Part shown: piece by piece, positions 2,635 through 63,550 of the stretch
Numbering within the stretch: position 1 is the stretch's first letter
How the letters are laid out: every line of letters starts with the position of its first letter
DNA from: Lingula anatina
Lineage: Eukaryota > Animalia > Brachiopoda
Reading direction: 5' to 3'
DNA: 64,000 bases
NCBI GenBank assembly: GCA_051362555.1
Contig: CM120647.1
Location: 372,001-436,000 of the forward strand
Position numbers and translations under genes: made by a program
Notes under the pieces: model-generated
Databases searched by the model: none
The model's input: the letters and a program-made list of their open reading frames with translations, nothing else
What the model was told of the DNA's origin: nothing

Positions 2635-5600
2635 CTGAGAGAGAGAGAGACAGAAAAAAAGAGAGAGGAAATATGAGAGAAAGAGGGAGAGGTAGCAATG
2701 GTGATGAACTCTCATGCCAGAGGTTCCTTGAGAAGGTAATTGAGTTCTGCAATTTTGTGTCATATTCATATGTAAAGGCAAGAAGTACACTTATAATATT
2801 ATGTTGTATGAAAAACTTTATATCTTGGTTTTCTTGTGCCAAATGTGCCCACAAAATGTGGTGTAGTTATAGTGCTATTGGATGCCCTGTGACGAGGTGA
2901 TGATCATTTAAGATTGAAGAGAGCAGTTAAGAAAAGAGCTGTTATTGCAGGGTGTAATATTATTCTCTGAACATATCAGGATATAAACCTATACCATATC
3001 ACTTAACATTTTACTACCCAGTCACTGTGACCCAGTATTTCAACTTCCAGGGGAGCCAGACTCTAGTGTCCTGGCGTATTTTGAAGATAAAGACCTGTCA
3101 GCTACCATCAAAACACCAGAAGACACCTATGTTATTGAGGTAAATAGGGGAGAGTCAAACTGCTTGAATACTAGATACTATTGAAAGAGAATAAGGGTAT
3201 GATGGCTTTAACAGTATCTTTTACTGTGTAACCATTAGAATGAATGTCAGTCTTACTGAATAGAGATTAACTTTGGTTTTGTATTGTCTTGCAGCCCTCA
3301 TGGCGCCACCTATCCAAGTCAGAAAACTACAGCATGATAGCGTACCGAGGGTCAGACATGGAGAAGGAGTTCAACAGAGAACATCCTAACCACATTGGGT
3401 ATTACTAACTACAGTCATATTTAGTTCCTGCTGTAACAGTGCAGTAGCTGGGAAAAAGTTTATTTTGTCATATCCTTACAATCACAATTAAAACTGGAAT
3501 TTTCATAGAAACATTTGCTTTTGTTCTTTTTTCACATTGCTGTTTTTTGATCTGTTGTCCCTTTAAAATTGTCATATGCCTTTTAATGTGCAGTGTTCAG
3601 TGACGGCCTAATGATAAAGTTTGAAATATGTTATCTAAAATAGTCCAGTGTATCAGAGAAGTGTTCTGAGTAATTATTTGTATTATTTCTATAATAACCA
3701 CCTGTCAAGAACTCAGTCTATGACATAAACACTAACCAGTATTCCTGTTTCTCCTCCAGCTCCCAGTTTTGTGGTGCTATTAAAGAGGGCTGGAATGACA
3801 CAGACACCTATGAGGAGGACGCAGATAAAGATGATGACACGGCATCTCGTGCCAAACGTCAGACAACCTTCACACGGCGCAGGTGTCCGCTGCTGCTGGT
3901 GGCAGACTATAAGTTCTATGAGGAGATGGGGCGCGGTGCGGAGGAAGAGATGGGTGGTCTAAAGAGGACCACCACTTACTTGGTGAGTTAGAAAAGATAC
4001 AGTTATTTGTTATTTGTAGAAAGTGGCAAGGAGAAAGGAAGTAGTAAATATTTCCTGTAGGAATTTAGTTCAGGTAGTTGGAGGAAGAGGAGGGCAGAAG
4101 AGGACAAATTCTCAGGTGATGTGCTGTCCTCATGGAGGGTGCAGTGTAGGTTTTATATATCTCAGCAAAGAAGGTGAACTATTCAACACATACATATTTA
4201 ATTCATTTGCAAGTATGCATGCATGCAAACATACACTTGCAGACAAACACGTGATAATAAGGGTTTTTAAAAATTAATTAAGAATTAAGGTTTATTTTTT
4301 ATTATTTTTTTTTTATTGCAAATCTCAAATAAGTACAGATTTCAGCAAAAAATATAAAATTTATAAATAACTAAATAAAAATCACACTCACTCTCTCACT
4401 CACTCACTCACAAAGAGACACTCAGTCATTTGCAATATATATATATATATAGTTACTGTGTCATTTAATATATATGTCAACAACGATATATTGATAACCT
4501 AATAGTAAAATACTTAATAATACTTAGTAAATAATATGATCTAATACAGATAAAAACAAATATGTGTTTTACTATCAAATATCGGCAGGGGAACATACGC
4601 AGATAGAAGATATCATTCCAGGAAGAGAGGCTGCAGCTTTTTCCATTTTTCATTAAATTTATCTATTGTCATGTTTCTCAGACTTATATTTCTCTCTGCG
4701 ATGTAGGCCTGTCTCCATTCTATTTTAATATTTTCTATGTTCGGGGTAATGTTTTTCATTTTAAATTTATATATAATAAATTTTGTTATGATCAGCAAAC
4801 TGTTGAGCGCATTGCATTTCAAATTTGGAATTCCTAGAATTATATCAGATGCTGTTAATTGTAATACAAGTCCAGTCTTTAAATGGATCCAGTCTTGTAT
4901 TTTTGCCCAAAGGGGAGCAATTACTTTGCACTCAATAAATAAGTGTTGAAGAGTTTCAGGGTGTTCGTTACAGAAGGAGCAGGTCTCTGTGTCTTTTATC
5001 CCAATTTTTCGTAAAAAATTATTTGTAGCTAAAATTCTTTTTGATACTCTAAATTTAAACCAGCGCAGTTTAGTATCTAAAGTACATTGGAAAGGAATGT
5101 TATTCAAGATTTTCCACTCTTCAGCTGTGAGAGGTTCTTTAGAAAGGAGTTCCCATTTTGACATTGCATTAGTCTTTTTCATTTCGTTTGAGTTCAAAAT
5201 ATTGTAAAAAGGTTTCCCCCCTTTTGTAAATTTTAATAGCCATTTAAGTTGGGTTGAAATTATAGGGAGCTCAATTTTTTCATGTAAATTGTCTATATTC
5301 ATTTGTTTTTGAAATTTTTTTACTGCGCATAGTATACTTGTGAACGTAACATAATTTATTATATTCCCGTGCCTTTCCTTGAACTGTTGGTATGTGAGGT
5401 AATTTCCCTCTGTATCGATCAAGTCATTTATGTTTCTTATACCTATTTTATTACAGGTTCTTATAAGAATAGGATTGTTTTTTATCCGTATTTTATCATT
5501 TAGCCATAAACATTCTTTTAAAAAATTTTCTTTTGTATCAATCTTTTTATTCTTTAACAGTCTGCACCATGCATCAATGACTTGATTCCAAAAAGCATTT

Positions 5601-8600
5601 TTTGATCCGTTCTTAATTTTTTGCATTTCAGACATTCCCATTTCAGACCAGTGTACACCCTTACTTTCAGGGATCAGACTAAGGAAAAAGAAAGACCATT
5701 TTGAATTTTTGTGCATGATTCTCCTGAGCCATGAAATTTTTAGGGAATCAATATAGTTTCTAATATCGGGGACTTTTATACCTCCATTTGAGTACGACTG
5801 TGTCATTATATCTCGTTTTACTCTTTCAATATTTCCATTCCATATGAAATTAAAGCACGTTTTTTGTATTTTGTCTACATATTTGTTTGGTATTGGCAAT
5901 GTGGAAAATAAATGAGTCATTTTTGGAAGGATCAGTGATTTAAAAATTACATTTCTCCCCAAAACTGTTAGCGATCGGTGAGTCCATTGTTTCATAGTTC
6001 TTTCCATATCTCTATAATTTTTCTCAATCATTTCATGTAAATTTACTGAGAAATCTATTCCAAGGATTCTGAAAAAACGTTCATTCCAATCGAGATTCAA
6101 CTCTTTACACATGCTCTCTTGTGAGTCTTTCTTGCTTCCGAACCAGTTTAATTTAGTTTTTTGATTGTTCATTTGTAGTCCAGAAAATTGGGAGAATTCA
6201 TTTAGAACCTTTAGGGTATTTCTTAAACTTTTTTCAGTCCCATCCAACACAATAGTTGTGTCATCAGCATACTGGGAGATGAGAAAAGTTTGATTATGTA
6301 TTGTAATGCCTTTTATGTCTATTTCATTTTTTAACATGATACTTAGTATCTCAGCACAAAGAATGAAAAGGTAAGGGGAGATGGGATCCCCCTGACGGCA
6401 ACCCCGAGAAAGATTGAAGAAAGAAGAGGCAAAACCATTAACCAAGACACACGAAGAGGAGTCTTTAAGGAAGAGTTTTATCCATTTTATGATAGATTCT
6501 CCAAAGCCAAAGAATTCAAAGGTTTTTTCGATAAAAACCCAGTCGATTGAATCGAAAGCCTTAGCAAAATCGATTTGCATCAACAGACCTGGTATTTCAT
6601 GTGCGTCACAGTATTCAATTAAGTCGAAAATGGTCCGTGTATTCTCACCTATGTATCTGCCCGCCATAAACCCATTTTGGTCTTCATTTATTAATATTGG
6701 TAATACTTTCTTTATTCGATTCGTTATACATGCCGAGGCGAGTTTATACACAACATTAAGTAGTGATATCGGTCTTAGGTTTTTTAACGAGTTGGTAGGC
6801 TTATTATGTTTAGGTAGAAGGACGATTATACCCCGGGTAAGAGTTATAGGTAGTTTGTCTTTTTCGTATGCCTCGTTTATACATCTTATTAAAAAACTAT
6901 TCAGTTCTTTCCAAAAGAATTTGAAAAATTCGTAAGTAAACCCGTCGGTACCTGGGCTCTTTTCATTTTTCGTTTGTCTTAATACTGTATAGAGTTCAGC
7001 GTAGTTTATCTTTCCTTCGAGCGAGGATGCTTCGGCTTCGGTCAATTTTGGAGTTTCAATATTTTCCAATCGAGTTTTTATGTCTACTGATTTGTGATTT
7101 TGTTTCTTAAATAAATTTTCGTAAAAGCGTGCGGTTTCTTTGAGAATCTCATTTTGTTCAGTAAGAATATTTCCGTTATCTGTTACCAGTTTAGTTATTG
7201 ACTTATTTGTAAAATTGCGATTTTCCAGTGCTAAAAAGTATTTTGATGGTTTTTCTCCGTATTCTATCCATCTTTCTCTTGATCTTATCATTATGCCTTT
7301 TACTTTTATTTTTCTTATATTTTCCAGTTTCATCTTTTCCTTATTTATCATTTCAAGAATTTCTTCTTTTTTGTCTAATTCGGCCTCATTTTAAAGATCA
7401 TTCTCTAGGTCGTTTATAGTATTTTCCACTTGTTTTTCCTCTGACTCTCTTTTCTTTTTTATCCTAGCACCAAAAGCAATCGTTTTCCCCCTAATTTTCA
7501 TTAAGAGAGTTTCAAGAAATAGCCCATCGCTTATAGTTAACTGTAAAGAATGTCTGTCAATATTCAGTATGTTATCTCTATTATAGGGCGCTGCTGCATA
7601 CTCTAAGATAGTTTCATTGATTATCTGCTTTACCATATCGGCATACTCACTTTCATATAAGTGGGAGTTATTGAATTTCCAAAAACCTTTTCCGTGTTTA
7701 ATTTTCCTTTTTAACTGTAAGTCCAGAGTTATAATGGAGTGGTCGCTCTTATAACCTGGAATAATCTGACTATCTTCGATATAATTTGTAATGGTTGTGG
7801 AAACAATAAAATAATCTAATCTTGCCTGTTTAAAAGGCGTAGGCTGCCGCCATGTATACCTCATGCATTTCCCTCCATATGTCGTGCCAGTTATGTAATT
7901 CCATCAAGGTATAAAGTTGATTAGAGGCCTTGGGGTTATTTTTATGTTTATAGTTATATGTGTCCTTCTCTTGGTTTAATACTAAGTTAAAGTCCCCACA
8001 GATAATATGATCCTGATTTCCAAAATTCATTATTGTCTCGTGTATTTTTAAGAAAAATTCAGGTGAATCATTATTGGGACCATACAGATTTATGAGTGAA
8101 ATGTCTTTTTCATCTACTATCATACTAAGAGCAATTAAGTTTCCGTTAGTGTCTTTCTCAACCTCCTTAATTTTATATTCAAAATTATTGTTAACCAATA
8201 TTGCAACTCCTCTTGAATTAGAGGTTCCATGACTGAAAAAGCATTTAAAGCCCCATTCAGCTGCTATATATTTTTCCATAGATAATGTACTATGAGTATC
8301 TTGTAAACAGTAGATGGAAAAGGATTTCTTCCGCAAGAAATTGAACACATCTAACCGCTTATTTCGGTCCCCAAGACCCCTACAATTTACTGAGCATATT
8401 TTAATATTTGATTTGATCTGTGTATATCTACCAGGTTTCTGCCGCATATGTATATACGACAGAAAATAAATTTACATCGCACAGTCATATTCTAAGTGTA
8501 GGTAAAGCAATCGTACTGAGGTATCAAATCTAAGTGTTTCATTGTTGCAAACTAATAGGGATAACTTAACTACATATATATCGGTTATACTATATAATGC

Positions 8601-11600
8601 GTTATCAAATTCACTTCCATCCACCCACGCATACAATAGACCACTTGTACCCATTCTACCAGAATTGACATACACACCAAGACAAACTATCGAAAACACA
8701 CACATACACAGGATAGTACTAATAACTAGTAATTAAAAAAAATAATGATAATAATAATGATAATAATAATTTGATGCTAGAGCGGCTAGCTAACAGTTAC
8801 CGCTCTGCTGTTTATAACTACTTTCAGTTTTACATTGATTTTTATTGTCCAAAATTTCAGTGTCCGTATAAAGTTCATTTTCAGGCTTATTGTTTTAATT
8901 TGGTGTCGATATCGTCGAATATGTCGAATGTATATCGGTTTATGAAAATTAAGGTTTATGAAAATTAGAAAATTCAGGAAATTCAACTTCAGTTATTCCC
9001 TATCTGATGTTGCTTTGCTGTTTTATTTTCCAGATAGCGCTGATCGCCAGGGTGAACCACATTTACAGAAACACCTCCTTTGATGGTCTGGACGACTTCG
9101 GCTTTGAAATCAAAGAAGTAAGAATTTTTTGGCAACTTAAAGCAGCTGAGGTTCATCATATGTAAATATCCTTGAGTAAAGAAACAAAAAACATGGAGAT
9201 CATTTCTCTCAAAATGATGCATATATATTATCTTATGTTTGCATTTATACATAGTATTGTTTTAACAGGGAGTCTGATATCATCTTACCAAGTCAATGGT
9301 ACTATAAGACCTTTAAGTTAGAGTTTGGACACTGCCTGGTGCTGCCCTCTACAGTACAGTTTGTGTACAACCTCAGACATGCTCTTTGTAGACAAAAAAC
9401 TTTGCATTCCTAATGAATTGGTTTCAAACCTTCCTGTTCTTGGTATATTTGTTATATAATTAAAATATGCACTGTTTTTGACAAACTCTTATAATATCTG
9501 CTTCAAATGAACCTTGGGCTATCCTGTGTGGACATATTGTAGGATAACCCTGTGGTTTGTTTATTTCTACAGGTCCGTGTCCACGAAACAGCAACAGTGC
9601 CTTCTGACCCAAAACGTCTCCACTACAACATGGATATCCAGAAGGTGCTTAACAGGCAGTGGGATACCAGAGAGTTACTAGAGGTATATGATGATGAGGG
9701 GGTGGAGGGGGAGGGCAGGTTGGGGGGCATATCTTTTAGGGATAGCAGTCTTCAAGTTGAAGGAGAAGGGAAGTTGTGCATTAAAGATATTCTGGAATGA
9801 TAGATGTTATTTTTAAGTACTCTTTTATTTTCATTGCATATGTTTACATATTATTAATTTATTATCTCATGTTAGTGCCATTTTTGATTTTGTACTTTTA
9901 TACATAATACACATACATGAAGTTACTAGAGAATGGTTTTATCTCAGAGTATTTAGTGTTATGATGCACATCAAATTATTAACATTAGTACATGGTTTTA
10001 CTTCCAGTTTAACACTATATAATAAAATCATCAATGTTTATATTGTGCACATCATCTACAGCATGTCTCAGCAGAGAGAAGCATGGGCTGTGACTACCAC
10101 ACTCATTAGCTGATTCTCTGGACTGTCTTGGGCTTGAAAGACATACTACTGCCCTCTATCTTCTGTTATAACTGTACACACAACTCATTACTAATCAAGT
10201 CATTCTTATGATACATACTTTTTATGTACAGACACAGATGTGTCTGTACATATAGCCATCATCTGCGTCTGTCGTCGCCGTCGCCGTCGTCGCCGTGCAC
10301 TTTTACCGATAACACGATAAGTGGAAAACTGTTTTTTATTTCAGCTTGAAACTTACAGAATTGATGAATATTTATAATATGCAGGTCAAGTTCGAAAATC
10401 AGCATGATCGGGTCACTTGTAGGGAAGTTATGCTGTTTTTTCACTTTTTTCAGCATATATGCAGCACCGATAACACGATAAGTGGAAAACCATTTTACCT
10501 TTTGGTTTGAAACTTACAATACTGATGAATATTCATAATACGCAGGTCAAGTTCGAAAATCAGCATGATCGGGCCATTTTTTGGGAAGTTATGCTGTTTT
10601 TTCACTTTTTTCATCATATATGCAGCACCGATAACACGATAAGTGGAAAACCATTTCACCTTTTGGCTTGAAACTTACAGAACTGATGAATATTCATAAT
10701 ACGCAGGTCAAGTTCGAAAATCAGCATGATCGGGTCACTTGTAGGGAAGTTATGCTGTTTTTTTCACTTTTTTCAGCATATATGCAGCACCGATAACACG
10801 ATAAGTGGAAAACCCTTTTACCTTTTGGCTTGAAACTTACAGAACTGATGAATATTCATAATACGCAGGTCAAGTTCGAAAATCAGCATGATTGGGCCAT
10901 TTTTAGGGAATTTATGCTGTTTTTTTCACTTTTTTCAATATAAATGCAACACTGATAACACAATATAAGAAAAACGGATTGGCCAATTGTCATTATACTC
11001 ACAGAAGTTGTCAATCTTACTAAAACGCAGGTTGAGTTCAAAAATCAGCATAAGCGGGCCATTATTGTACCACCAGCGTTAGCGCTGGCGGTACACATGG
11101 TTTCGGTCTCGTCCGGATCGTTCCGCCGGCTCCGCCGGCTCCGCCGGCTCCGCCGGACGGCTACCGTTACCGCTTCTCCTCCTAGACGGTAAGGCCCCCC
11201 ATACCCATCTCATGGATTTAGGTCACCTATAATCTCAACTCGTTCCACGTAAAATTTGGGCTTTGTCGGTATTGGGGTCTGGGTGTGGCACTCATTGCAA
11301 TGCACCCTTGTCCAAAAATGGCAAAATTAAATGCTAATTATCTACCCTACGGAAGGAGTTACGGGAAAAATTTCTACAGACGGCTTTCCAAAAGTCATAT
11401 GTGTAGATTTCAAATATACCCTCGGATTTGACCTTTGACCTTTACTTCAAGGTCAAATGGGCCAAAATTTTCAAAAAAATGAAATTTTTTACGAAAAAAA
11501 AATTTTTTGCCCTGTTATTCAGACACCACTCAGACTTAACCAATAATATTATTGGAAAGTGTTACCCTTCAGGTCATCTTTCATCTCCGTGAATTTGGGG

Positions 11601-17802: not shown

Positions 17803-20800
17803 AAGATTAAAAGTTTGAATAGCAGCTTCATTGGAATTATATTTACCTATGCCAAGGAGGTTATATTTTCACCCCTGTTTGTCTGTCATCAACATAACTC
17901 AAAAAGTTATGGACCAATTTTGCTGAAAATTTCAGGAACTGTCAGAAGTGGGCCAAAGAGGACAATAATCAATTATAATCAACAATTGCTGCCTTGTTAA
18001 TTTTTTTCTCATACACTGGCATTTGTGACTTATAACTTCCATCCACCTGAGGCTCTGCTCATTTTCTGTATTTCCACATAAGCAGTTGTATTGTTTTTTA
18101 TGTCTTTAAACATTATGTTATATTATTTTATGCACTGTCATCATTTTTCAAATATTGAGACTTTCATCATTGGTCTCTAATGGTCCTGAAACTGTAATCT
18201 TATTGAAGGGGTGGATTGAGACCATCTTCTGGGTCTTCCGGAAGACAGTCAGGTTATTAAGTTTATATTGACTGGTATCTGTTTTTTTTCTGTTGGAAGA
18301 CCTTCAAAATGGAGGATGGATCAAAATAGATACTTTGGATTACTGTCAGAAAATATCTCTGGATCTGCTCCTGTTATGGATCTGCTCCTGCCTGGGCAGA
18401 GGTCTGCACTCTCAGAGTGCTTTTCTAGTTTTGTTTATTTTCCTTAATAACTTTTTTCTCAAACGCTTGCATTTGTGATATTTAACCGCCTGAAGCTCTG
18501 CACATTTTCTGTATTTCCACATAAGCAGTTGTATGTTATTTATGTTTTCAAACATTATGTAATATTATTTTATGCACTGTCATCATTTTTCAAATATTGA
18601 GACTTTCATCATGTGACTTTGGTCTCTCATGGTCCTGATACTGTAATCTTATTGAAGGGATGGATTGAGACCATCTTCTGGGTCAGCTTCCGGAAGACGT
18701 TCGGATTTTTAAGTTTATATTGACTGATATTTATTTTTTTTCTGTTGGAAGATCATCAAAATAGAGGATGGATCAACAAAGATACTTTGGAATACTGTCA
18801 GAAAATATCTCTGGGTCAGCTCCTGTTATTGACCATGTTACCTGTTGTGCATGATTAAAATTCAGTGTTGACTAACAGTGCTATTATAAGCATTATTTAT
18901 TATTGCATCAAAATTGGCAAAATGACCTATTTTGCATCATTATTTTCTGTTTTTTGTCTGTACATTTGACAGCTTTGCTGCCTTGTTTATCTTACCATAA
19001 CCATATAGTAGGTAGTGGAGGACTTGTTTATTTATTTTGCACTGATACTTGTTTACCATAGTAGTTTAAAGTGCTATTAGGATCAATAGTATGTGATCTT
19101 TGCACTATATTGTAAGCACATTTGAGATTTGTATCCAGGCACATTTGAATACAACATGGGTATGCATCTATCACCCCTGTGTTATGGTAATATTCTATCA
19201 TGATCTGGTTTACTTCTATATTATATATAATGTAGAGCCAATAGACCATATAAGGCATTTATTATTCCTTAATGTATTGGCATATATTAGGGAGGTTTTG
19301 CAAACAACACAGTATGAGTACACAAAGCCTAGTTGTACTTGGTACTTCATAGAACAGTTTCACATATATGTAATGAAATGGGAACATGAAAACACTGGAG
19401 GTCGCTAGTGTATTATTTGGCAGCAGTGAAAAAGATGCTCAGTTGAAAACATAATTTCTTTTTTTTTCACATGAAATAAGCCATCATGAAGGGATTCAAA
19501 TGGAAAAAAATTCATTTGCCAAAAAAAAAAAAAAAAAAATGAAATAAATTTTTAATGTGTTTGTATTGAATATGAACTCAATTTTTTACAAAGATTTCTT
19601 GAAATCTTTATGAGTTGCTATGGCAAACTACAAAAATGTCATAGTGACTTAAAAGTGGTGGCTTAGTTCTCAATATTCATACTTGGTAGTGTGTTGTTTG
19701 CAAAGTCTCCCTATTCCCTCCATTATGTGTGGTCTGTTGCTGTTTACTGAGCTGATCACAGCACATCTGTTATGTCTTATGTCTTGTTATTTTGTATTTC
19801 ACTTTGTAGAAATGTGTACCAAGCTTGGTTTAACTTGTGTGTGGTACTTTCAGCAGTATTTTTTAAACCTCCACAGCATGTTTTACAACTGAAAAGTTAC
19901 TTAATTTTAGTAGCACTAGATACAGTTGCTTATATTCACTCTCTCTTTATAAATTAAATTAAAGCACTCAGAAAATATTATGGAGGAGAAAAGGAAAGGG
20001 AAAATACTGTAGAATGTTTTTAATTTTACTGTATCCAAGAGACACAGAGGTTGTCATGGCAACCTAATCAATATGCTGTTAAACATATTAACTTGGTATC
20101 TTTTCCCGATTTCCGCTCCATTCCAGGCATTTGCTGCAGGAGGCGATTACTCTGGTGTCTGCCTTGCTCACCTGTTTACATTTCAAATCATAGGGCGTGT
20201 CTCCACTAAGACCCTGGGGACCCTGGGGCTGTCCTATGTGGCCTCTGCCAACCCTGGGGACAGGGGAGGGGTCTGCTCCAAAGGTACTTAATGGGTGCTG
20301 CCCCCTATTGTCTAGGCATGGTATATAGTGCTGCCCCCTATAATCTGGGCATGATATATAATATTGTGTGATACAGGGCTGTATCTAGACACTGCCTGTA
20401 CAGGAAAGTCTTGGCATGTAGCTTTGGTTTATTATTAGTGCTTGTAGTTGAGAATTCATAGGAAGTTTCCTAGCTTTGGTAACCAAGTATAAGCAAAAAC
20501 CACTCTGCTGTAGCGTGATTATTGCAAATGTCTTCCTCATTATAGTCAGGAAAAAATGGGTAAATAAAAATCAGCACATGCTACAGTTGTAGACAGAGTT
20601 TTGAAAACTGTGTTGATTAGTTACAAATATCAAATGGTACTTATTTTGGTAGTATATTTTCAAAAGTTTGTACTCAAAGTCAGACACAGTGTTACAGTTG
20701 ACTTACTGACTTACTGAATTTTAAATAATTTCTTTCAGATTTTACTAATGAAGCATTGTTTTGAAAGCTCATAGTTCAGTTTTGTTCAGTTGTAGTGAGT

Positions 20801-23800
20801 GTATATCATGATACTGTATGTTGTGTAGGATGCAGACATGATGCCCCTTATCAATACAGTAGATATATGTATTGGCTGGTAAAGAAATAACATTTCAGGC
20901 CTTCACTAATCCATTGTTATGCAAACCATGTATCAACAAATAACATCAAATTAACAGAGACACCTTGAAATGGTCTACTTGTATCATAATTTTATTACAT
21001 CTTACCCGAAGTTACCTATGTCAGCTGCATGCAGTGTACTTATTACACTCCTGCCCCTTACTAACAGTGTTTGTCACACCCTTGCCAAAGACTTGTCATC
21101 CTCTGTTACCCACATGTCCCCCAGTCACCCACATGTCACCTTCCTGCCACCCACATGTCATCTACATGTCACCTTCCTGCCACCCATATCACCTACATGT
21201 CACCTTCCTGTCACCCACATGTCATCTACATGTCACCTTCCTGCCACCCATATCACCTACATGTCACCTTCCTGTCACCCACATGTCACCTTCCTGTCAG
21301 CCACATGTCACCTTCCTGCCACCCACATGTCACCTTCCTGCCACCCACATGTCACCCACATGTCACCTTCCTGACACCCACATGTCACCCTCCTGTCACC
21401 CACATGTCACCTTCCTGCCACCCACATGTCACCCACATGCCACCTTCCTGACACCCACATGTCACCTTCCTGTCACCCACATGTCACCTTCCTGTTAGCC
21501 ACATGCCACCTTCCTGTCAGCCACATGTCACCTTCCTGTCACCCACATGTCACCTTCCTGACACCCACATGTCACCTTCCTGTCACCCACATGCCACCTT
21601 CCTGACACCCACATGTCATCTTCCTGTCACCCACCCTTATCTTCCTGTCACCCACATGCCACCTTCCTGTCACCCACATGTCATCTTCCTGACACCCACA
21701 TGCCACCTTCCTGTCACCCACATGTCACCTTCCTGTCACCCACATGTCACCTTCCTGTCACCCACGTCACCTTCCTGTCACCCACATGTCATCTTCCTGA
21801 CACCCACATACCACCTTCCTGTCACCCACATGTCATCTTCCTGTCACCCACATGCCACCTTCCTGTCACCCACATGTCATCTTCCTGTCACCCACGTCAT
21901 TTTCCTGCCACCTAAGTGTTAAACCCCTGTCACTTACTACATCGTCATCTGAATACAAAGTTGAAAGCATGTGTATGCTGCATGCCGAGTGCCAAGTGAA
22001 TAGCACAGTATAACCTTCATTACTACCAAACATTTATTATAATTTAATTAATTCATGATATATAAATGGCTATTTATATAATGTAATAATAAGGATATGC
22101 TTACTCATTCATATAGGGAAATGCCTATTTATTGAGCTTCAAACATAAAGGCTACTAGTAAAAGATGTGTAAGCATAATAAGTAAATTTCATTTAGTGTT
22201 TTAATTAATAGCTTTTTGTTACCAAGTTTTCATCAATGTCTGTTTTGTTTAATGTTGTTATTAATTTCATCAGTTAACTTCAAATTGGAAATAAAAAAAA
22301 ACTAAAACCACCTATTAATCCATGATTAGGTAAAACCATTAATATAATGCGTAATATTTGACAACTTTCAACTGAAAATTGACCTACTTTTACAGCACTT
22401 TACAGATCTCCCAAATTTGGAAATGGTAAAGACTACAAGCTATTCCCAGTGTTTAGCGTTGATATATTGGCATTGTAGTTATATATAATATAATATATAC
22501 ATATAGTCAGGAATAGTGTACATTGATATCTTGGACATTGTTTGAGCTAGGAGTGAGTAGAGATGTGTTATAACATAACTAGGATTCTGTGACATCTGCT
22601 GCTATAGTACTCTGTTATTATCAATTCTATGTTCTCCTTTCTTGTTCCTTTGATATTATTATATCATAACCATTTTGAGGCCCTCTAGTTTGGGTTTAAT
22701 TATTTCAGTCATGTAGGAGTTATTTCAGAATCTTTTATTATTCACTAACATGGTAGTCTGCTTTAGCTTTCAATTATTATATTGATTTCTATTGACATAT
22801 TTTGCAGTAAATATTAAGATACTAAATGGCTCTGCATAACAGCTTTAGTCTCACTTTTGTATGTTTGTATGTTTTCTTTTTATTTCTATTCAATTATTTA
22901 TGAAAACTTCAAACTATGAAGACTTACTAAAGCTGCATCTATTATATTTTTAGACATTTAGGCACACTCTCCTTGCAGAGGAGAACTGGCCAGAGCTTGC
23001 GTCTCTTTGCCTGCTGCACCTCTTCACATCCATAGCATTTCCGTCAGGAATTCGAGGCCTTGCTGTAGTTGGGGGTCTCTGCTCAGCAGCGGCAAGGGGT
23101 CCCGGTTTGTTATCTGTATAAATGTCGTCTGCTGCTTTTTTCTGTAATTATTTGCCAAATTAGTTCCATTCTCACATCTGTCATCTTTTATACCTTCAAT
23201 GATGATCCTTTCAATTGTAACAGATTTTCACGGGTGCATGGACCCCCTGCTTTCAGTGTGGAACTCCCACTGTACATTGTTGTCTGATTTGTGCTGGAAA
23301 TGTCTCTGACGGTGATGAGGGAGTGTGTCTGTCTCCTTTCTTTTATCAACTTGCTGAAATCAGAATGAAAACAGGAAACAGATTACTGCAGCTAGTCATT
23401 TGAACATTGATTCTCTGCAATTTTTTTTGAATACAATTTTCTATGCACCCTTTATTTCTTTGATCTTAGCACAAATAGTCCATAACAGAGATTGTAAGTG
23501 GAAGTGCTAACACATGAAACTAGGTGCTATCAGATGCAGAAGTTGTCAAAGAGGAGCACCAAGCACTTGTTAGTTAACAGTTTCTGTTATATATGTTTCA
23601 AATACAGGTACATTGAAATGCACCTTCAATTAGTGAATAACTTCAAGACAGCAGCAGGCTCTAGGTCTCAGTGGCTTGGTATCACCTGACCAAAGATGTC
23701 CAGGGATATGTGTGCACACCTGTAGAATTCTACACCTGACACTACACCTGACACTACACCTGACACTACAGCCTGTGCCTCTGTTATTGTATTTATAGGT

Positions 23801-26800
23801 ATTTGGTCGAGACGCTACATTCCGTGATTTCTGTCTGGCGCACCTGTTCACCTTCCAGTCCTTCTCAGGTGGCGTCCTCGGCCTGGCGTATATTGGATCG
23901 CGGCGCAGGGGCACGCTGGGAGGCGTCTGCTCCAAAGGTGAGGCTACAACCAATCAGATTTGTTCATTGTCGTGCTCCCCGCATGAAACTAGAGGTGGCA
24001 TGTTTTCTCGTGTTCCTGTTGTAATAATGAGATGCTGAAAGCCGCCATGTTTATGTTTGCTCTTAGCTGTGCTCGTGTGCATGTAGACATATGTGAACTT
24101 TTACTCAGAAAGCATGAACTGCCAGTGATAATATGTATATATATATATATGGGGCCATTCCCAGACCCTATCGTACTAACTGTGGATCGATCGATCTCTG
24201 AGGGGATTCTCTCTGAATTGCCATCAACTTAAGAGGTTTACTTGTCTTTCATGCCTTCCAAAGCTGCTATTGGGGTAATTAATTATGGTTAAGCAGCTTA
24301 AGTAGACGCACCAGACATGTAAGCCACTTAAGCTGAAAGCAATTTATCAAGAAAACCCTTGGAGATGGATCGATCCTGTTAGATTGATCTAGGTATGGGA
24401 ACCCAGTCTACGTGTGTGTCCTCATGGCTCTCTTGTACAGATGGTACTTTATACCCCTATGTTCAGGTAATGATTTCTAGCAGACCCCAGCTTAAGATAA
24501 AGTAAGGGAAAGGTTGGTCTCTGGAAAAGCTGACTGTAAATCTAATTTGCATGTAAGCAATTAAAATCTGCAATTATATTTAGCACTTTTTGGGGATTTA
24601 AAAACAAGCAAAACAACACAGTGTAACTTAAGAGATAGAAAAGTACTAATTGAACTGTAACTATGAACTTATTCTATTATACTTCCTTCTTTTACTGCTT
24701 TTCAAAAATCTTATATTTTCATCATCTTGGTGTTGGGATATGACTTGTTAAAGAAAAAACGTATTATGAAATGAAACAAGGATAATACCACAAATATCAT
24801 TTTTATTTTTATTTTATATATTTATTACATTAATACACCTATAACATATATATAATATAAATTGTCATAATATTAGGTGAGCCAATCACAAATTTGACAG
24901 GTAATTAAGACCAGCTTATTTCAAGGCCACTGATTGACAATAATACGCAATACTCAGTTATAAATTGCTTCTGACAGGTAGATAAAATCCAACGTGACCA
25001 GTTTCTCAAGGCTATTGATTGACAGCTTGAGGCAATTGACAGCCAGTCTCCTTTGCTTGTGATTTTTAGCTCAGATAAGAGGCTGTCAGACTGTTATTTT
25101 TGTCATGGCATTTTTCACTGATTAGTGCCTACCCCGGTGTTATAGGTGTATAAGTGTGATAATATATATATGATATTTCACGTCACCTGGACACATAACC
25201 ATCTAAAAGCTTGTCACAATATAAAAGAGATAAATCATTGCACAGCTATCGTGGTTCGGTACAATTTATTTGTTAGTTGCAAACTACTTCCTGGTTTCCA
25301 CGAGGTCCTTTAAGGATTCTAAAACATTGATATAATCGCAGAACATACCGTAAAACGCACAAAATTAATAAGATATGGGCATATCAGTTTACAAACATGC
25401 AAAAACTGCACATGACAACAATTTACAGCCTTGTAGGAATTCTTTTCCTTTGATGCTTTTTGTCGCGCTGTCGGTTGATGCAGCATATATTTCAAAACAA
25501 ATTGACTGCAAATTAAGCACAATTTTGCACTTTCAGGTTTTGTAACACGTTTTCATATCACGTACCAATTATTTCTACAAGTATTCTCTGCCCAAAATGC
25601 CAAAAAAATGTTATCTCACCGTGTTGTTGGAAAAAACGCTTTTTTCTCTGAACCCACGTCTGCACTCTGTTCACCTCCAGCTAAAATGACCACTCAGCTT
25701 CTTGTTTACACCACTACACGTCAGTTCCGGCACAATTCTGTCTCCTCCGGTTTCCTCCATTAGAGGTTACAACCATGATTTTGAGACACTGTACCAGATT
25801 TCTTTAATAATATATTCATTTTTTTGTTCAGCACTTTGCTTGCTGCTAGCTTACATATATTAACATGGTTGCACTGTATATATATTAACACTGAATGTTG
25901 TGCTGCATGAACTTTCTGTATGCTGTTTTTCAGGCTCATACTAGCATATGAAAGTTTTGCTGAAATACTTTATATTGGCTCTAGAAAGCTTAGAAGTAGA
26001 AGTTTTTTGGCAAATAATCCTTTAACTTAAAAAAAATCATATATAGAGTTATTTGACATAATAAAAAAGCCAATATGCTAGCATCTATCTACATTATAAT
26101 AGCATTATGTTGCCAGTAGAAAACTTGCTCAGTTATCACTCACAGACTGCCTGTAAAGTACTAATACAACATCAGTGAATGGTAGACATAACTGCACCCA
26201 TAAACCAGCTGTTACATACTTATCCAGTAATACTAAATATAGATATTAACCCACCTGTCTTCTATTATTTAATTTTCTTGGTATATGATCTAACATATAG
26301 CTTGTCTTGAGACCTCAAACTTGTTTTGAGGACTTGGGATTGTCTTGTAGTTGACCTCCACCTGGTGGGCTTGTCTTGTAGTTGACCTCCACCTGGTGGT
26401 ATTCTTGTGTGTCTCAGTTTTATTGCCTTTTGGCCTTGCTGACAAACCCAAGGTTTGAAAGTTTTCTAACCAACATATTAACAAATAAAGGGTACAGAAA
26501 AAAATACCAAAAAAAAAAAAAAAGGTTACTGTAAAATTGAATGAAGTTCGAAAAACTTTAGAATTGGTCTCAATATTAATAGAAATACATAAATATTTTA
26601 GTATAATTTGGAAAAATTGAAGGAATATGAGAAGTTTAACTGAGACACGCTCCCTCCAATGATGTCTGTCTGTAGTTATTTGTATCTCTGTGGTTCTCTG
26701 TAAAAGCTAGTATTATGTGGGTGCAGACAGTGAACAGATTTAGTTGTAGCCTTACCTTTTCTGCTCCTTGGGGACCTTTGTATGCTTTTATCTTACAGTT

Positions 26801-29800
26801 TGACAAGATACAATATTTCATGTCTATTTATTATACCTTTGTGGAATGTGTTGTTCCTCTGGAACACTGTCGTTATTTTGCAGGTCGAAAATGTAGTAAA
26901 AATCATTTAAGTATGAAAAGATTTAAAAAACAAATACCAGATGGTACTGTGTACCCAAGACACCCCTACATGTTCAAGGGCAAGCTGCTGCAGAAGAAAT
27001 ACCCTAATAACTTTTTACTGTAACTTTCACTGTTGTAACTAAAAATACTATCCCCTTGTTTTATTCCCGTTTTCACTGATAGAACATTATTGTATTTTTC
27101 ACATAAATTGTTTCTTCCAAGTTAACCCCAGTTTTGAAGGGAGATTATTTGGAGCTTCCAGTTTCAAATTCTTTCTCGGAAGAAGTTCCGAATCTCCATA
27201 AGCCAAATTGCATGTACCCGAAGTTTGTGAAAAATTTTACTGATACCTGAAAGTAACAAAAATTCAGCCTAGTTGGCCAGAACAGAAACTAAGCATATTG
27301 GCAACATATTGAGTTGGTTTTTTTAAGGATAGACAAGTGCACTTTGGTAAGAAATTTCTGTCCTTTTTCTTATGACAATCATACATGTTGTCATGGTAAC
27401 CAGAGTCATCCTCGTAGTAGCCATTTTATATTTCTGCAGCTATTCTTTGATGTACAGTGCCTCCTTTAGCATTTTTTAGTACTAAGGCTTTTGTTTGTCT
27501 TTTTTTTATGTCATATAATTCATTTTTAATTTCTCCTCTGTTTTTATTATTTGTTTACATACTTGGTATTTCTTGCTCTTTATTACCACCATATTTTGAT
27601 AAAAGTGAGAAGGGATGATTTGAGCTTATTTCTTTGTAATGGTCTCTTGTTTGATATATCTGTATTATTATTTGACTTGATGTTGTAGATGTTGGTATTA
27701 CATGTGTTCATTCTGCAGTTAATCAGGACAATTTCTGCAATGAGACATTGCTTTACTGGCAACAAATAATGTTTATAAAATGTCTTCATCCATGTCAGTT
27801 ATTAAAACTGATTTGCTGCAGCGTAGAATTTATTGATTATATTCATTATTATTGTGTGGCAAAGTGAGTGTTGGTTTCATTGTATCCCCTCCATATTAAC
27901 TCTCCCCCTCAGTGTTGCCCCTCCTCAATGTTGCCCCCCCCCATTCCTCTTGTTCACAACCTCTTAACCTCTGATAGGATTTAGTGTTCTATCTATTTTT
28001 ATGACGGCTAATTGTAGTCAGTGTTTTTATGAGTCCGTGAGAAAATTATTCTGGTTATATGATAAAGCACAGCCTGCTTGGTGTCAGAAATGAATATTTC
28101 AAAACTGCTGACTCATGATGGCTCCTGACCATTAACAGCAGTTCAAGAGATGATCGTTATGAGTTCTGGCTTTGGGTGTGGGTCCATATCTCCCAAAACT
28201 TACGCTGTCAAGAAAACAATCAGCACAGATATCCTTGATACTCATCCCCCCCCCCCCCCAAATAACCTTGTTTCATAGTAATGAAAATTTCCAAATTTTC
28301 ACCATTGATACTAGTAAATATGGCCTCCATCTCTTGAACTGTCCTAGCTTACTGTTATATATCCTTAATGTAATACCTTTACTTATGATAGATGTTAATT
28401 CCTTATTTTTGGTAACATTGTGCATATGTCTGCATTTTACACAGCCTCATGTCTCTAATTTTTGCCATGATGATCATTTTTTATCCTGGCATTATAAATC
28501 TTGAGAATTGCAAAATTCAAGTTGCTACTACCATTGATTGATTGTGATTTTAATTTAAGCAGATCTCATTTTGAATTGAAAAACTTATTAAAACTTTGCC
28601 ACCTTTCCTGTATCAATAATTTTTATCATTCAGTGAACAAAAATCTTATTATATGTTTGGTTGAAAATACACACATACATTCCCACATTGTCTTTCTTTT
28701 TGGAGTATCAGTTGAAAAATGTGAACCATTATCATATGATTGCCTTGTTTATGTACCAACTTAATGATTTAATTTTTGTTTATTGTATACCAAAGTGAGG
28801 CTTCTGTCTGGACAGGAGCCTCATTTCAGCACCAACCAAAACATCCTTTCTGTCATCTGCTTCAGGCATCAATCATGAAATGATAATACATGAACAGACA
28901 AAAATCAAAATTTCAGTAAGATTTTGTTCATTGAATGATAAATCTGTGACCCATATCCCTGTGGCCTACATTTCCAAGGGATGTGGGTCACTGCTGGCCA
29001 GTGTAGTCCCATATCCCTGTGGCCTTCATTTCCAAGGGATGTGGGTCACTGCTGGCCAGTGTAGTCCCATATCCCTGTGGCCTTCAGTACCAAGGGATGT
29101 GGGTCACTGCTGGCCAGTGTAGTCCCATATCCCTGTGGCCTTCATTTCCAAGGGATGTGGGTCACTGCTGGCCAGTGTAGTCCCATATCCCTGTGGCCTT
29201 CAGTACCAAGGGATGTGGGTCGCTGCTGGTCAGTGTAGTCCTGTATCACAAAGAAATTTCATAACTTGTAATGTTGCCAGAACAACATATTTGGTATAAA
29301 ACAAGTATGTAAAAAATCCGATATATTATGTTAGTATTTTGAGAAAAATAATAAGTCAGATGCTTTCATTCTGTAAAGTATTTTGAAAAAGAAGGTAATG
29401 AATGTCTTGAATTCTGAATTTTCTGTAATATTTAACTATATCAACTCTTTGACCTTCACTATGATACACATGGTGTTGAAAAGATTAACGGAGTGTATTC
29501 TCTGTCCTGCAGCATATTACAAGGGAGGTGCTGACATGTTCCTGAACACAGGGTGGTCCTCAGCAAAGAACAGGAATAATGAGAGAATTCTTACACAGGA
29601 AGCTGACCTGGTGACTGCCCATGGTGGGTGTGAATGTGTTAGATGTGACAGTGAGATGTGAATGTGTTAGATGTGACAGTGAGGTGTAAATGTGTTAGAT
29701 GTGACAGTGAGATGTGAATGTGTTAGATGTGACAGTGAGGTGTGAATGTGTTAGATGTGACAGTGAGGTGTGAATGTGTTAGATATGATAGTGAGGTGTG

Positions 29801-32800
29801 AATGTGTTAGATGTGATAGTGAGGTGTAAATGTGTTAGATATGATAGTGAGGTGTGAATGTGTTTGATGTGATAGTGAGGTGTGAATGTGTTAGATGTGA
29901 TAGTGAGGTGTGAATGTGTTAGATGTGACAGTGAGGTGTGAATGTGTTAGATATGACAGTGAGATGTGTTAGGTGTGACAATGAGATGTTATGCGTGACT
30001 GAGGGATGAATGTGAATTGGAAAAAATTTGATGGCAGATTTAAATAGAACTTCAGGGGTCAATTTATTTATTTTATAACATGAAAGTTCACTTTTTGTTG
30101 ATGATTTTATTTATCTTTATTGTTAAATGTTTTGACATTGGTTTTACTAACTTACTAATACTGATACATTTTTTGTTTTTCTTTCTTACATGATTGCAAT
30201 GGCAGAATTTGGTAAGTCTGTTTAAAGGTAGTTTACTTTAAACTGATTTAGATTCGTTGTTTTGCTAATGTCCACTGTTCCTAAACTGAAGTTTTTGTTA
30301 CTTTCTCAGTTAGTAAAGTTAGTATTTTTGAAATAAAGCATACATACTTTGTTGTTGATAATTAGATGAAAATTTGATGGATTTTTGATTTGAAAAATGG
30401 TTTTGAATCAATGGATATGCCATCATTTATTTCAAGCAGTAAGCTTTCATGGAACTTGTTTAGTATTTACATTGCTTATACTAACTTGCTTATTCTGACT
30501 CTTTGGATCTTAACCATGACCTTGTTTTTTTGTGTCAAGGTCATAATTGGGGCAGTGAACACGACCCAGACTCTGAGGAATGTTCTCCCAACGCCTTTAA
30601 TGGCGGCAAGCACATCATGTACACGTACTCTGTGTCAGGATATGAGAAAAACAACAAGGTAATATAACACTTAATACATATCATGTACACATACTATTGA
30701 ACACTATTATTGAACTTGATCCATGTACACAAAAATGTGTTATTTTTTGTTAAGTACTGGAGTAAATTTTGGCAAGGCATAAGTTTCTTATTGATAATTG
30801 ATATTTCCTTTTTGAGAAGTCTTGATATATGTGTATTCCCCTTATTGCAGATCTTCTCCCCTTGCAGTAAGAGAGCTATGGGGGAGGTGCTGAGAGCCAA
30901 GTCTGCTTCTTGTTTTGTAGGTAGGTATATGCAGTAAGAGAACTATTGGGGAGGTGTTGAGAGGCAAGTCTTCCTCCTGTTTTGTAGGTAAGTATATGTA
31001 GTAAGACAGCTATGGGGGAGGTGTTAAGAGCCAAGTCTGTCTCTTGTTTTGTAGGTAAGTATATGTAGTAAGAGAGCTATGGGGGAAGTACTGAGGGCCA
31101 AGTCTGTCTATTGTTTTGTAGGTAAGTATATGTAGTAAGACAGCTATGGGGGAGGTGCTGAGAGCCAAGTCTGTCTGTTGTTTTGTAGGTAAGTATATGT
31201 AGTAAGACAGCTATTGGGGAGGTGCTGAGAGCCAAGTCTGTCTGTTGTTTTGTAGGTAAGTATATGTAGTAAGAGAGCTATGGGGGAGGTGTTAAGAGCC
31301 AAGTCTGTCTCTTGTTTTGTAGGTAAGTATATGTAGTAAGAGAGCTATGGGGGAAGTACTGAGGGCCAAGTCTGTCTATTGTTTTGTAGGTAAGTATATG
31401 TAGTAAGAGAGCTATGGGGGAGGTACTGAGAGCTAAGTCTGTCTCTTGTTTTGTAGGTAAGTATATGTAGTAAGAGAGCTATGGGGTAGGTACTGAGAGC
31501 CAAGTCTGTCTCTTGTTTTGTAGGTAAGTATATGTAGTAAGAGAGCTATGGGGGAGGTGTTGAGAGCTAAGTTTGCCTCTTGTTTTGTAGGTGAGTTTCT
31601 GGATGATTGGGTTTTAAATGTTGGAAGTAGCTAAAAAGTACACCCATGAAAGAAATAGATCTTGTTTACCTTATTAACAAAAATTTTTGTCCTGAAAGCT
31701 TGGTAGGAGCGTGCAGACATACAACATTAAATACCATTTTTCAATGTTTAAGACCATTTTTAAATGAAGGAAACCATTTAGAACGATTTTATAACAAAAG
31801 CATATATAGATTAATATACCATGTTTCACCTGAATTTCTTACTTTTTCCATGTCTGTTTCAGAGCCGTCCCAAAGTTACTGCGGCAACTACATCCGTGAG
31901 GAGAATGAAGAGTGTGATGCAGGGTTGGAGGGAAAATCAGGCACGGATCACTGCTGTACGGAATCATGCACTTTGAGACAAGGGGCACAGTGCAGGTACA
32001 GGAGGCAAAGTTGACCAGTTGAGATGTACAACATGAACAGTCTAAAAAAGTTTTCTTTTACAAATATATATTTGAAAAACTATAAATTCATTTTTTTTTT
32101 GATAAATTTTTTTCACAGGAAAATTAGTGCTTAAGCTATGTTATGTGTAATCCGTGCTTTGTTTTCCAGTCACATCAACCACGCATGCTGTACACATCAG
32201 TGTGTGATTGCAGGACCAACGCAGTTGTGTGAGGCTCGCCCAGACGTCAACCTCGCCTGCGAGAAAAATGCCTACTGCAAATATCCTTGTAATACCCATT
32301 AATCTTGTCCTTATGTTTCAAACATGTTGATTATGTGGTGAAAGTCTACACATGCCTAGCTGGGGTAGCGCTAGCAATTTGTTTGCTTAGCCAAATCACC
32401 ATTTTTTGGTCAATTTGTTATCAGAATGGTTATAATTTGACTAAAACAAGTCAAATCAAGCCCGTTTTGTATAACCAATTAAGGCCAGTTTTAGCATTTG
32501 GCTTAATTGGCGAGTGTTAGCGCTACCCCAGCCTAGCTATACATGTAGTTAGAAATGAACATTTCTGCAGATAATGCAAATCTCACCTTTCTGAAATTTT
32601 ATTTCTCTGTTATACTCTACAACATAATACCAGTAAAATATGTGATGAACTGTTCAGGATGAGTTAAATGATTAGTATAGATTTTTTCTAAGATCATAGT
32701 TGTTTGCCTACCTTAAAACTGATAGCCAGTTTTCTCAGTGCTGACCGTCCACCACCTCCAACATTATTATTGAAGTAATTATATTATAGTAAGAACAATG

Positions 32801-54500: not shown

Positions 54501-54673
54501 CTCAGCCAAATATCTACATTATTTTATATAATTACTCATATTATATCATTGCTTAATAGAATACTTATATGTACTTATATATCTTTTGTACATTTTCATC
54601 TACTCATATAGTTGTATGCATTACAATGAATAAAGCATATTTCTAGTGGTATCCAATATGTACTGACCTGCAA

Positions 54674-54709
<36 letters not shown>

Positions 54710-57377: not shown

Positions 57378-57410
<33 letters not shown>

Positions 57411-62607: not shown

Positions 62608-63550
62608 CTTCGATCTTCTATTAAGGCGAGGTCAAGGTCGATTAAGAGGCTGGAAAGGAGAATGCTTATGCAATAAGTGGCACGTTTGCATTCTCTCCCT
62701 TCCAAATGAAAAATTATCATGACAAACTATTTAAGTTAAATTCTGTGTGTTTTTATGTTATTTAAGATCAGAAAACTGCAATTAGAATGTTATTTCACGT
62801 AAAAATATATTCATTTTCTAATTCACTTTGCATCCCCTATTTTATCGATTATTCGGAATAGAGGGCTTTGTGTACAGCTGCAGAGTTTTTATGAGTGTCT
62901 TCAGCGCCATCTATCGTCATCGTGCATCAAATTTCCAGCACGCACATGGGCTGATGCATGGTGTGATCAGACATTTCTATGGAAAATTTATTACTCACCA
63001 GCAAAGAGGTAATGTTTGGATACTTTGAGTGCAAAATTTTACACTATTGAGGTTCGTGTCCTGAAAAAGGACACACATATAAATGATTGGGATGACGACT
63101 TTGCCACTTGCAGTACACGATTATTTATTCATCTAAGGAGTTGTATACAATTTTGTACAAATTTATCCAAGCTAAAACTTTAGTAAAAATTTACCACCAA
63201 ATTAATTTGCTTACTGGCCGTAAGATAACTAAAATAAAGGATTAGCACTAGCAGTAGTCCAGTTATCATAGCAACACAAATAAATCTTTATTTAAAGACG
63301 AGTTTTTTACAAATGTACTTCAGGTTTTTTTCCCTTAAACTATAGCTCCTATGTTAAAGTCTTTTTTTCCCACAAAACCCAACTAAACTACAACATATAG
63401 TTTCAGGAAGTGTATTTAAGAGATTAACCGTAGGACATCATTTCATATTTTCAAAAAAAATTGTATTTCAACGGACATTTTTGTTTCCTTTGAAAGCATA
63501 ACTGTAAATACTCGGCACATAATTCATACAATACATTCATGTATAGTCTG

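What the first reader, a model, noticed from the sequence alone, without database searches (positions are those of the whole stretch)
20127..23937. Three mutually exclusive paralogous exons swap the substrate-binding edge strand of the ADAM17 catalytic domain
Seen in sequence: three homologous exons (157, 151 and 139 nt), all phase 0 to 1, open, with AG/GT ends, lying between WDTRELLE and AYYKGG. Each keeps CLxHLFT and GGxCS, including both Cys. They differ in the segment between: A is [22 protein letters not shown] is [16 protein letters not shown] and C is [15 protein letters not shown]. Including any two shifts the frame. Established: in human ADAM17 the GTLGLA bulge-edge strand lines the active-site cleft and binds the substrate backbone. 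Inference: one gene encodes three proteases with different specificity or TIMP/prodomain sensitivity. Protein-level conservation despite strong nucleotide divergence suggests purifying selection. I know of no description of this for ADAM17, but could not search the literature.
Basis: partly seen in the sequence, partly recalled or inferred. Interest (0 to 1): 0.9.

Follow-up and report, generated by a model that had tools for sequence, protein, structure and literature searches.

The report
Swappable active-site exons in brachiopod ADAM17
The lamp-shell gene for the cell-surface cutting enzyme ADAM17 carries three tandem copies of the exon that builds one rim of the active site; RNA reads show two of them used one at a time, which likely gives two enzymes with somewhat different target or inhibitor preferences, while the third copy was not seen in RNA.

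Summary
The three exons are real, homologous, open and phase 0 to 1, and there is no fourth. The gene is Lingula anatina ADAM17. RNA reads splice A and C separately between the same flanking exons: U-A 8 reads, A-D 7, U-C 14. A is the minor form (16-43%) and is under purifying selection (7 synonymous to 1 non-synonymous). RefSeq already lists A (X1, X3) and C (X2). B had no reads in three informative runs, is in no database protein, has a weak donor, Arg at invariant Leu348 and lacks an 8-residue loop, though its codons show past selection. So two isoforms are shown and the third is open. The edge strand barely changes between A and C; the adjoining bulge loop does (+6 residues). A second copy also occurs in the annelid Paralvinella (sharing GTLGLSYVA with A) and in insects, as this scan noted earlier for arthropods; many relatives have one copy. 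One origin versus several is unresolved. No paper found describes it. Functional difference is inferred, not tested.

The parts
9573..9683 (+). Constitutive upstream exon U (ends ...WDTRELLE, phase 0 donor)
   Evidence: its end is the loose-end sequence before A and before C in RNA reads
20127..20283 (+). Exon A, alternative copy with a 6-residue insertion in the bulge loop; expressed; RefSeq X1/X3
   Evidence: Depth about 3-7 in 3 of 4 runs; U-A 5+3 reads, A-D 4+3 reads; 7 synonymous to 1 non-synonymous variant; P0029, P0031
22954..23104 (+). Exon B, third copy: intact frame, weak donor (CCG/gtttgt), Arg at position 348, Val at 352, loop 355-361 deleted; expression not seen
   Evidence: Homology E 3.2e-08 and codon pattern of past selection; zero depth in 4 of 4 runs; absent from 76 fetched proteins; residue table
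23799..23937 (+). Exon C, canonical copy; major form; RefSeq X2
   Evidence: Depth about 9-17 in 3 of 4 runs, U-C 14 reads; 100% in XP_013383117.1; PDB ADAM17 E 7.8e-10
29513..29623 (+). Constitutive downstream exon D (AYYKGG...TAH, phase 1 at both ends)
   Evidence: its start is the loose-end sequence after A in RNA reads
30206..30211 (+). 6-nt microexon completing the catalytic Glu of HEFGH (needed for an active enzyme from any isoform)
   Evidence: AG/GTAAGT ends; RefSeq proteins read HEFGH; not tested with reads

Best explanation
Lingula ADAM17 splices either exon A or exon C, one at a time, between the same two flanking exons, which likely gives two active sheddases that differ at the bulge loop and edge strand lining the active-site cleft and would therefore differ modestly in substrate or inhibitor (TIMP, prodomain) fit. 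Shown: both junction sets, C major and A minor, selection on A, the position of the exon in the fold. Inferred: both proteins are active (all zinc ligands and the catalytic Glu lie in shared exons); the 6-residue basic insertion in A and the T347/S351/V353/A354 changes retune the subsites; exclusivity is kept by splice-site competition plus nonsense-mediated decay, since each copy is 3n+1 long and one to three copies is the range in which every wrong combination shifts the frame. Exon B is an old copy that was once under selection and is now either rare and tissue-restricted or lately silenced (about even odds).
For: Junction loose ends U-A (X7 5 reads, X5 3), A-D (X4 4, X7 3; agreement 0.98-1.0) and U-C (X5 14; agreement 0.97). 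A share of A+C depth 0.26, 0.16, 0.43. Variants in run X7 on exon A: 7 synonymous, 1 non-synonymous, p 7e-4. RefSeq X1/X3 carry A, X2 carries C. A-C core: 17 of 20 residues same, third positions differ at 11 of 20 against 4 of 40 at positions 1-2, p 3e-4. The exon maps to human ADAM17 332-367; Gly346, Thr347, Leu348, Gly349, Leu350, Ala351 and Val353 contact active-site inhibitors (PMC12491190) and TIMP-3 contacts the sIV bulge-edge strand (PMC5098442). Bulge loop is 6 residues in 36 of 37 canonical or single exons but longer in 6 of 8 alternative copies. All wrong combinations hit a stop early; NMD works for clusters of up to three such exons (PMC6071210).
Against: No activity data. The strand backbone (LGL, Y) is the same in A and C, and a review says cleavage-site sequence is a weak determinant of ADAM10/17 specificity (PMC7218085), so the effect may be small. 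AlphaFold models do not resolve the difference: pLDDT under 50 at 337-344 and 350-364 in A and at 345-367 in C. Read counts are small, only 6-25% of each run was read, and the two lay calls used different identity cut-offs (92 and 88), so the A share is rough. The C-D junction was not among the displayed rows (86 rows hidden); it rests on RefSeq X2. Run X1 covered neither A nor C and is no test. 17 of 18 fetched genomic loci with both flanks in view have one copy, so the second copy is dispensable in many lineages. NMD was not tested.
Confidence: 0.68

Rival explanations
1. All three exons are used, B in a tissue, stage or cell type not sampled, giving a third, strongly altered enzyme (Arg348, Val352, no 355-361 loop).
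For: B keeps the invariant Phe2 at the homologous acceptor, both Cys and the frame. B-C core 14 of 20 residues same with third positions differing at 12 of 20 against 8 of 40, p 0.003; neutral decay on B's half of the path gives p 0.004. The N-terminal insertion site is also lengthened in three other loci (L061, L072, L074). B's short loop matches ADAM22 spacing in a weak 24-to-24 residue hit, E 1.5. Its F-P-S-G resembles F-P-T-G of the Paralvinella alternative copy.
Against: Zero depth in 4 of 4 runs; upper bound roughly 6-17% of transcripts in those samples. Not in RefSeq's three isoforms or any of 76 fetched proteins; no short homologue. Weak donor, no branch-like motif, AG-free zone only 19 nt. 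Leu348 is kept in 44 of 45 exons and the loop in 44 of 45; B alone departs. The selection test cannot see recent silencing.
Confidence: 0.35
2. The A form is a dampened or regulatory isoform: the basic insertion partly closes the cleft or alters prodomain release, so splicing tunes how much shedding occurs rather than what is cut.
For: The insertion sits directly before G346-T347-L348 at the cleft rim; A is the minor form; insect alternative copies also lengthen this loop.
Against: A keeps GTLGL, identical to human, and all catalytic residues are shared; no structural or kinetic evidence (uninformative).
Confidence: 0.2
3. A and C are functionally equivalent spare copies; selection only keeps each compatible with the fold.
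For: Core strand conserved; one copy suffices in 17 of 18 informative loci, several of them near-duplicates.
Against: Alternative copies in three phyla change the same loop (6 of 8 longer, against 0 of 37 others) and Lingula A and the Paralvinella copy share Ser351, seen in only these 2 of 45 exons; saturated third positions show long co-retention.
Confidence: 0.15
4. A and B are decayed duplicates or assembly artefacts and only C is used.
For: B not seen in RNA.
Against: A is spliced on both sides in independent runs, is under purifying selection and is in RefSeq.
Confidence: 0.02

Closest known systems
RefSeq Lingula anatina ADAM 17-like protease isoforms X1 (XP_013383110.1), X2 (XP_013383117.1), X3 (XP_013383126.1)
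   Same: X1 and X3 carry exon A, X2 carries exon C, letter for letter.
   Different: Automatic models only; exon B is not annotated; no description of function found.
Insect ADAM17 (Tace) two-exon pair: Diorhabda X1/X2, Callosobruchus and Phaedon models, loci L026 and L032; also earlier scan finding e1-9849094
   Same: Same exon boundaries and phase; alternative copy upstream of the canonical copy, with a longer bulge loop.
   Different: Insertion of 1-3 residues, not 6, and of unlike sequence; two copies, not three; common origin with Lingula neither shown nor rejected.
Paralvinella palmiformis ADAM17 model KAK2166047.1
   Same: Holds two copies fused in one model; the second shares GTLGLSYVA and G-D-x-GG with Lingula A.
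   Different: Canonical copy comes first; no insertion; splicing not shown.
Homologous (tandem-duplicated) mutually exclusive exons, as catalogued in PMC7954323, PMC8373072, PMC9741552
   Same: Tandem homologous exons of equal phase, swapped singly, varying residues near a functional site; often old, often convergent.
   Different: ADAM does not occur in the main text of these three papers, nor ADAM17/Tace in the supplements held for two of them; Lam et al. list only 9 events at catalytic sites.
Human ADAM17/TACE (PDB 1bkc, 3cki, 8snl)
   Same: Best sequence and fold match; exon equals about residues 321-367 with the bulge-edge strand.
   Different: No duplicated exon reported in the searches run.

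Membership tests
ADAM17/TACE | Closer to ADAM17 than to ADAM10 | tested here: met
   Exon C: ADAM17 E 7.8e-10, ADAM10 8.3e-07; model: 8snl E 2.2e-55, ADAM10 2.9e-25
ADAM17/TACE | HExGHxxGxxHD zinc motif and Met-turn intact | tested here: met
   [12 protein letters not shown] at 395 and HIMY at 422 of P0004, using the 6-nt microexon
ADAM17/TACE | Prodomain, furin site, disintegrin, membrane-proximal domain (PF16698), transmembrane helix | tested here: met
   Pfam list of P0004; RAKR at 203 and all exons mapped to the window; C-terminal helix in models
ADAM17/TACE | Sheddase activity of each isoform | not testable with these tools
   Needs enzyme assays
Homologous mutually exclusive exons | Tandem homologous copies in one intron with equal phase and splice sites | tested here: met
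   (A, B and C)
Homologous mutually exclusive exons | Each copy spliced between the same flanking exons: A and C | tested here: met
   U-A, A-D, U-C reads; C-D from RefSeq X2
Homologous mutually exclusive exons | Each copy spliced between the same flanking exons: B | tested here: inconclusive
   No reads in 3 informative runs; bound about 6-17%
Homologous mutually exclusive exons | Copies are not included together | tested here: met
   All listed loose ends after A read D (7 reads) and before C read U (14 reads); small numbers
Homologous mutually exclusive exons | Conservation of the pair in other species | tested here: inconclusive
   Pairs in Paralvinella and insects; single copy in 17 of 18 informative loci; AU tests reject neither one origin (p 0.38) nor Lingula-only (p 0.19) nor arthropod-only origins (p 0.28)
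Steric-type MXE (too-short intervening intron) | Intron between copies too short to splice | tested here: not met
   A-B 2670 nt, B-C 694 nt; distant branch points not examined
Docking-site/selector MXE (Dscam type) | One intronic site complementary to a selector at each copy | tested here: inconclusive
   Best candidate (9691-9750) no better than random intron windows (0.38, 0.80, 0.13) or shuffles; only four 1.5-kb intron stretches tiled and no sister genome for covariation
NMD-enforced MXE | Double or triple inclusion and skipping all give early stops; such transcripts are degraded | tested here: inconclusive
   Stops shown for all five wrong combinations; degradation not testable here

The most novel reading that the evidence does not exclude
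ADAM17 in protostomes carries an unrecognised, very old splice switch at the active-site rim, kept or re-evolved in brachiopods, annelids and insects, that gives one gene two sheddases with different substrate or TIMP selectivity; Lingula adds a rare third form with Arg348 and no ADAM10/17-type loop.
Probability: 0.25. Interest if true: 0.72.

Novelty: new member of a known kind. Interest (0 to 1): 0.47.

Why it matters
ADAM17 substrate choice is usually ascribed to exosites, iRhoms and trafficking, and its active site is thought fairly permissive. A natural pair of isoforms that differ only in the bulge-edge exon, recurring in three phyla, offers a clean test of how much this rim contributes to substrate and TIMP selectivity. 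It also adds a protease to the short list of enzymes whose active-site lining is switched by splicing. The value is moderate because the A/C pair already sits in RefSeq and no functional difference is shown.

Tried and rejected
No whole genome is held. No RNA holder was listed by index; runs came by species label. Exon A against longer proteins found nothing although RefSeq X1 exists, because it sits inside the X2 cluster; this shows how weak such blanks are, also for exon B. The representative search with A gave 3 hits: one repeat-protein false hit and two unnamed exon fragments; P0002 resembles A's start but its context could not be fetched. A fourth copy was sought and not found. A docking site at 9691-9750 looked good at first and failed its controls; inverted repeats showed no common arm for the three exons among the 25 longest of 280. 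AlphaFold models of both isoforms were low-confidence at the variable loops; B could not be modelled in context. The exon tree (45 rows, 46 columns) left 23 of 42 inner branches open. ESM Atlas added only the family. No complex prediction was run. Caescu 2009 and Maskos 1998 were not held, so which residues set the S1' pocket was not checked. Paper searches for a description; none showed one in listings; subscription papers and large supplementary tables (for example fly MXE catalogues) could not be seen and may list Tace.
Full report
Observation. The three exons are at the stated places with the stated lengths (157, 151, 139 nt), AG/GT ends and open frames; each starts in phase 0 and ends in phase 1, between exon U (9573-9683) and exon D (29513-29623). 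tblastn gives A-C 45% identity, E 8e-10, and C-B E 5e-05. A profile built from 42 exons of other species, with no Lingula row, scores C 1e-24, A 9.9e-14 and B 3.2e-08 among 2067 stop-free segments; the next is 0.62. Each single exon reads through to the zinc motif; all five other combinations stop in B, C or D.

Identity. Exon C is 100% identical to RefSeq ADAM 17-like protease X2 of the brachiopod Lingula anatina, and that protein maps exon by exon along window 85-46910. Its 90% cluster has 5 members: X1 and X3 carry A, X2 carries C, none carries B. PDB sequence and fold searches put it nearer ADAM17 than ADAM10.

RNA. Four runs with the same species label were laid on two repeat-free stretches; 4 of 9 listed runs were used and 6-25% of each was read. 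Exon C has depth about 9-17 in X4, X5 and X7, with a U-C loose end in 14 reads of X5; the C-D end was not among the displayed rows (86 hidden). Exon A has depth about 3-7 in the same three runs, with U-A ends (X7 5 reads, X5 3) and A-D ends (X4 4, X7 3), so A transcripts skip B and C. A makes up 0.26, 0.16 and 0.43 of A+C depth; the cut-offs differed (88 and 92), which may inflate the X7 value. Exon B has zero depth in all four runs; X1 covers neither A nor C and is no test. The bound on B is roughly 6-17% of transcripts in these samples. Run X7 is a diverged population: on A it shows 7 synonymous and 1 non-synonymous change (p 7e-4), on C 4 and 3 (p 0.10).

What the exon encodes. It aligns to human ADAM17 up to residue 367, with Cys333, Gly346-Gly354 and Cys365 (chain 8snl_A numbering). 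Passages of PMC12491190 name Gly346, Thr347, Leu348, Gly349, Leu350, Ala351 and Val353 as inhibitor contacts in the cleft; passages of PMC5098442 say TIMP-3 contacts the sIV bulge-edge strand. That both Cys form disulfides is recalled, from no call. The zinc ligands, catalytic Glu and Met-turn lie in shared exons. Over 346-354, A reads [19 protein letters not shown] and [10 protein letters not shown]. The bulge loop 340-345 is 6 residues in 36 of 37 canonical or single exons, but 12 in A, 9 in four insect alternative copies and 7 in a fifth. So the swap keeps the strand and remodels its flanks. AlphaFold models (24 sequences; mean pLDDT 66.8 and 66.1) keep a strand there in both but are under 50 in the variable loops, so they do not settle the effect.

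Exon B. For: invariant Phe2 at the acceptor, both Cys, 14 of 20 core residues shared with C while third positions differ at 12 of 20 (p 0.003; half-branch neutral test p 0.004; the core blocks were chosen as the family's conserved motifs). Against: no reads, no database protein, weak donor and no branch-like motif, and it alone among 45 exons has Arg348, Val352 and no 355-361 loop. It was selected in the past; present use is open.

Other species. The Paralvinella model fuses a canonical and an alternative copy, the second sharing GTLGLSYVA with A; Ser351 occurs in only these 2 of 45 exons. Beetle isoforms (Diorhabda X1/X2, Callosobruchus) and two metagenome loci (L026, L032) show an upstream alternative copy; the 3' end of the L032 copy was not fixed. 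Of 80 loci kept (best 80 of 89, ranked by likeness to C), 18 show both flanking exons across introns: 1 has two copies, 17 have one, many being near-duplicates. The order differs: alternative first in Lingula and insects, canonical first in Paralvinella. The exon tree is poorly resolved; AU tests reject neither a single clade of alternative copies (p 0.38), nor a Lingula-only (0.19) or arthropod-only origin (0.28); joining Lingula A with the Paralvinella copy gave a slightly better tree than the free search (p 0.55). I put a shared brachiopod-annelid origin at about 50% and a shared origin with insects at about 35%. Convergent duplication of the same exon is well known (PMC9741552, passages).

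How exclusivity is likely kept. The introns between copies are 2670 and 694 nt, too long for steric exclusion. A candidate docking site failed its controls. All copies are 3n+1 long, so two, three or none shift the frame; PMC6071210 (passages) notes that NMD can enforce exclusivity for such clusters of up to three. Splice-site competition plus NMD is the simplest account; it is inferred.

Known or new. Homologous mutually exclusive exons near functional sites are a known kind (PMC7954323 passages and 6 supplement files, PMC8373072 passages and 1 supplement file, PMC9741552 passages, PMC3228551 abstract); ADAM17 or Tace was not found in them. Seven searches (listings only) showed no paper on this event; subscription papers and unseen tables may hold it. 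PMC7218085 (passages) cautions that ADAM10/17 have loose cleavage-site specificity. Verdict: a real, expressed, selected two-way switch at the ADAM17 active-site rim, already in automatic annotation, recurring across protostomes, apparently undescribed in print, with an unproven third copy. Interest 0.47.

Noticed in passing
window 30206-30211: A 6-nt microexon supplies the catalytic Glu (HEFGH); skipping it would stay in frame and remove it. 7 of 57 fetched protein models with this motif region lack the two residues. Earlier scan notes e1-8671683 and e1-8672189 report the same in octopus and annelids.
   Followed up: partly
window about 30863-31600: A 67-bp minisatellite copies the 3' end of the exon after the Met-turn exon together with its splice donor; 10 donor motifs at 67-nt spacing, 30987 to 31590. 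Which donor is used was not tested.
   Followed up: partly
window 4613-8471, minus strand: A non-LTR retrotransposon-like element (endonuclease- and reverse-transcriptase-like frames, recognised by eye; longest ORF 925 aa) lies in an ADAM17 intron.
   Followed up: no
window 45571-46910 and beyond: RefSeq X3 differs from X1 only in the cytoplasmic tail, so the gene also has alternative C-termini.
   Followed up: no
window about 54000-62700, minus strand: Exon-like frames resembling a phosphatidylserine synthase gene (label recalled, no call) run towards ADAM17 on the other strand; transposase-like frames at about 59900-60800.
   Followed up: no
L001-L003, L007, L010, L013, L017-L020, L022: In these arthropod-like genomic loci the intron before and/or after this exon is absent or shifted, so the swap cannot occur there in this form.
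   Followed up: partly
P0002 / P0075 (unnamed ENA contigs): An exon fragment whose start closely resembles Lingula exon A and which groups with it in the tree (93/76, not starred); context not available.
   Followed up: partly
window 24184-24376: An 85-nt inverted repeat 250 nt after exon C overlaps a dispersed repeat that draws many unrelated RNA reads.
   Followed up: no
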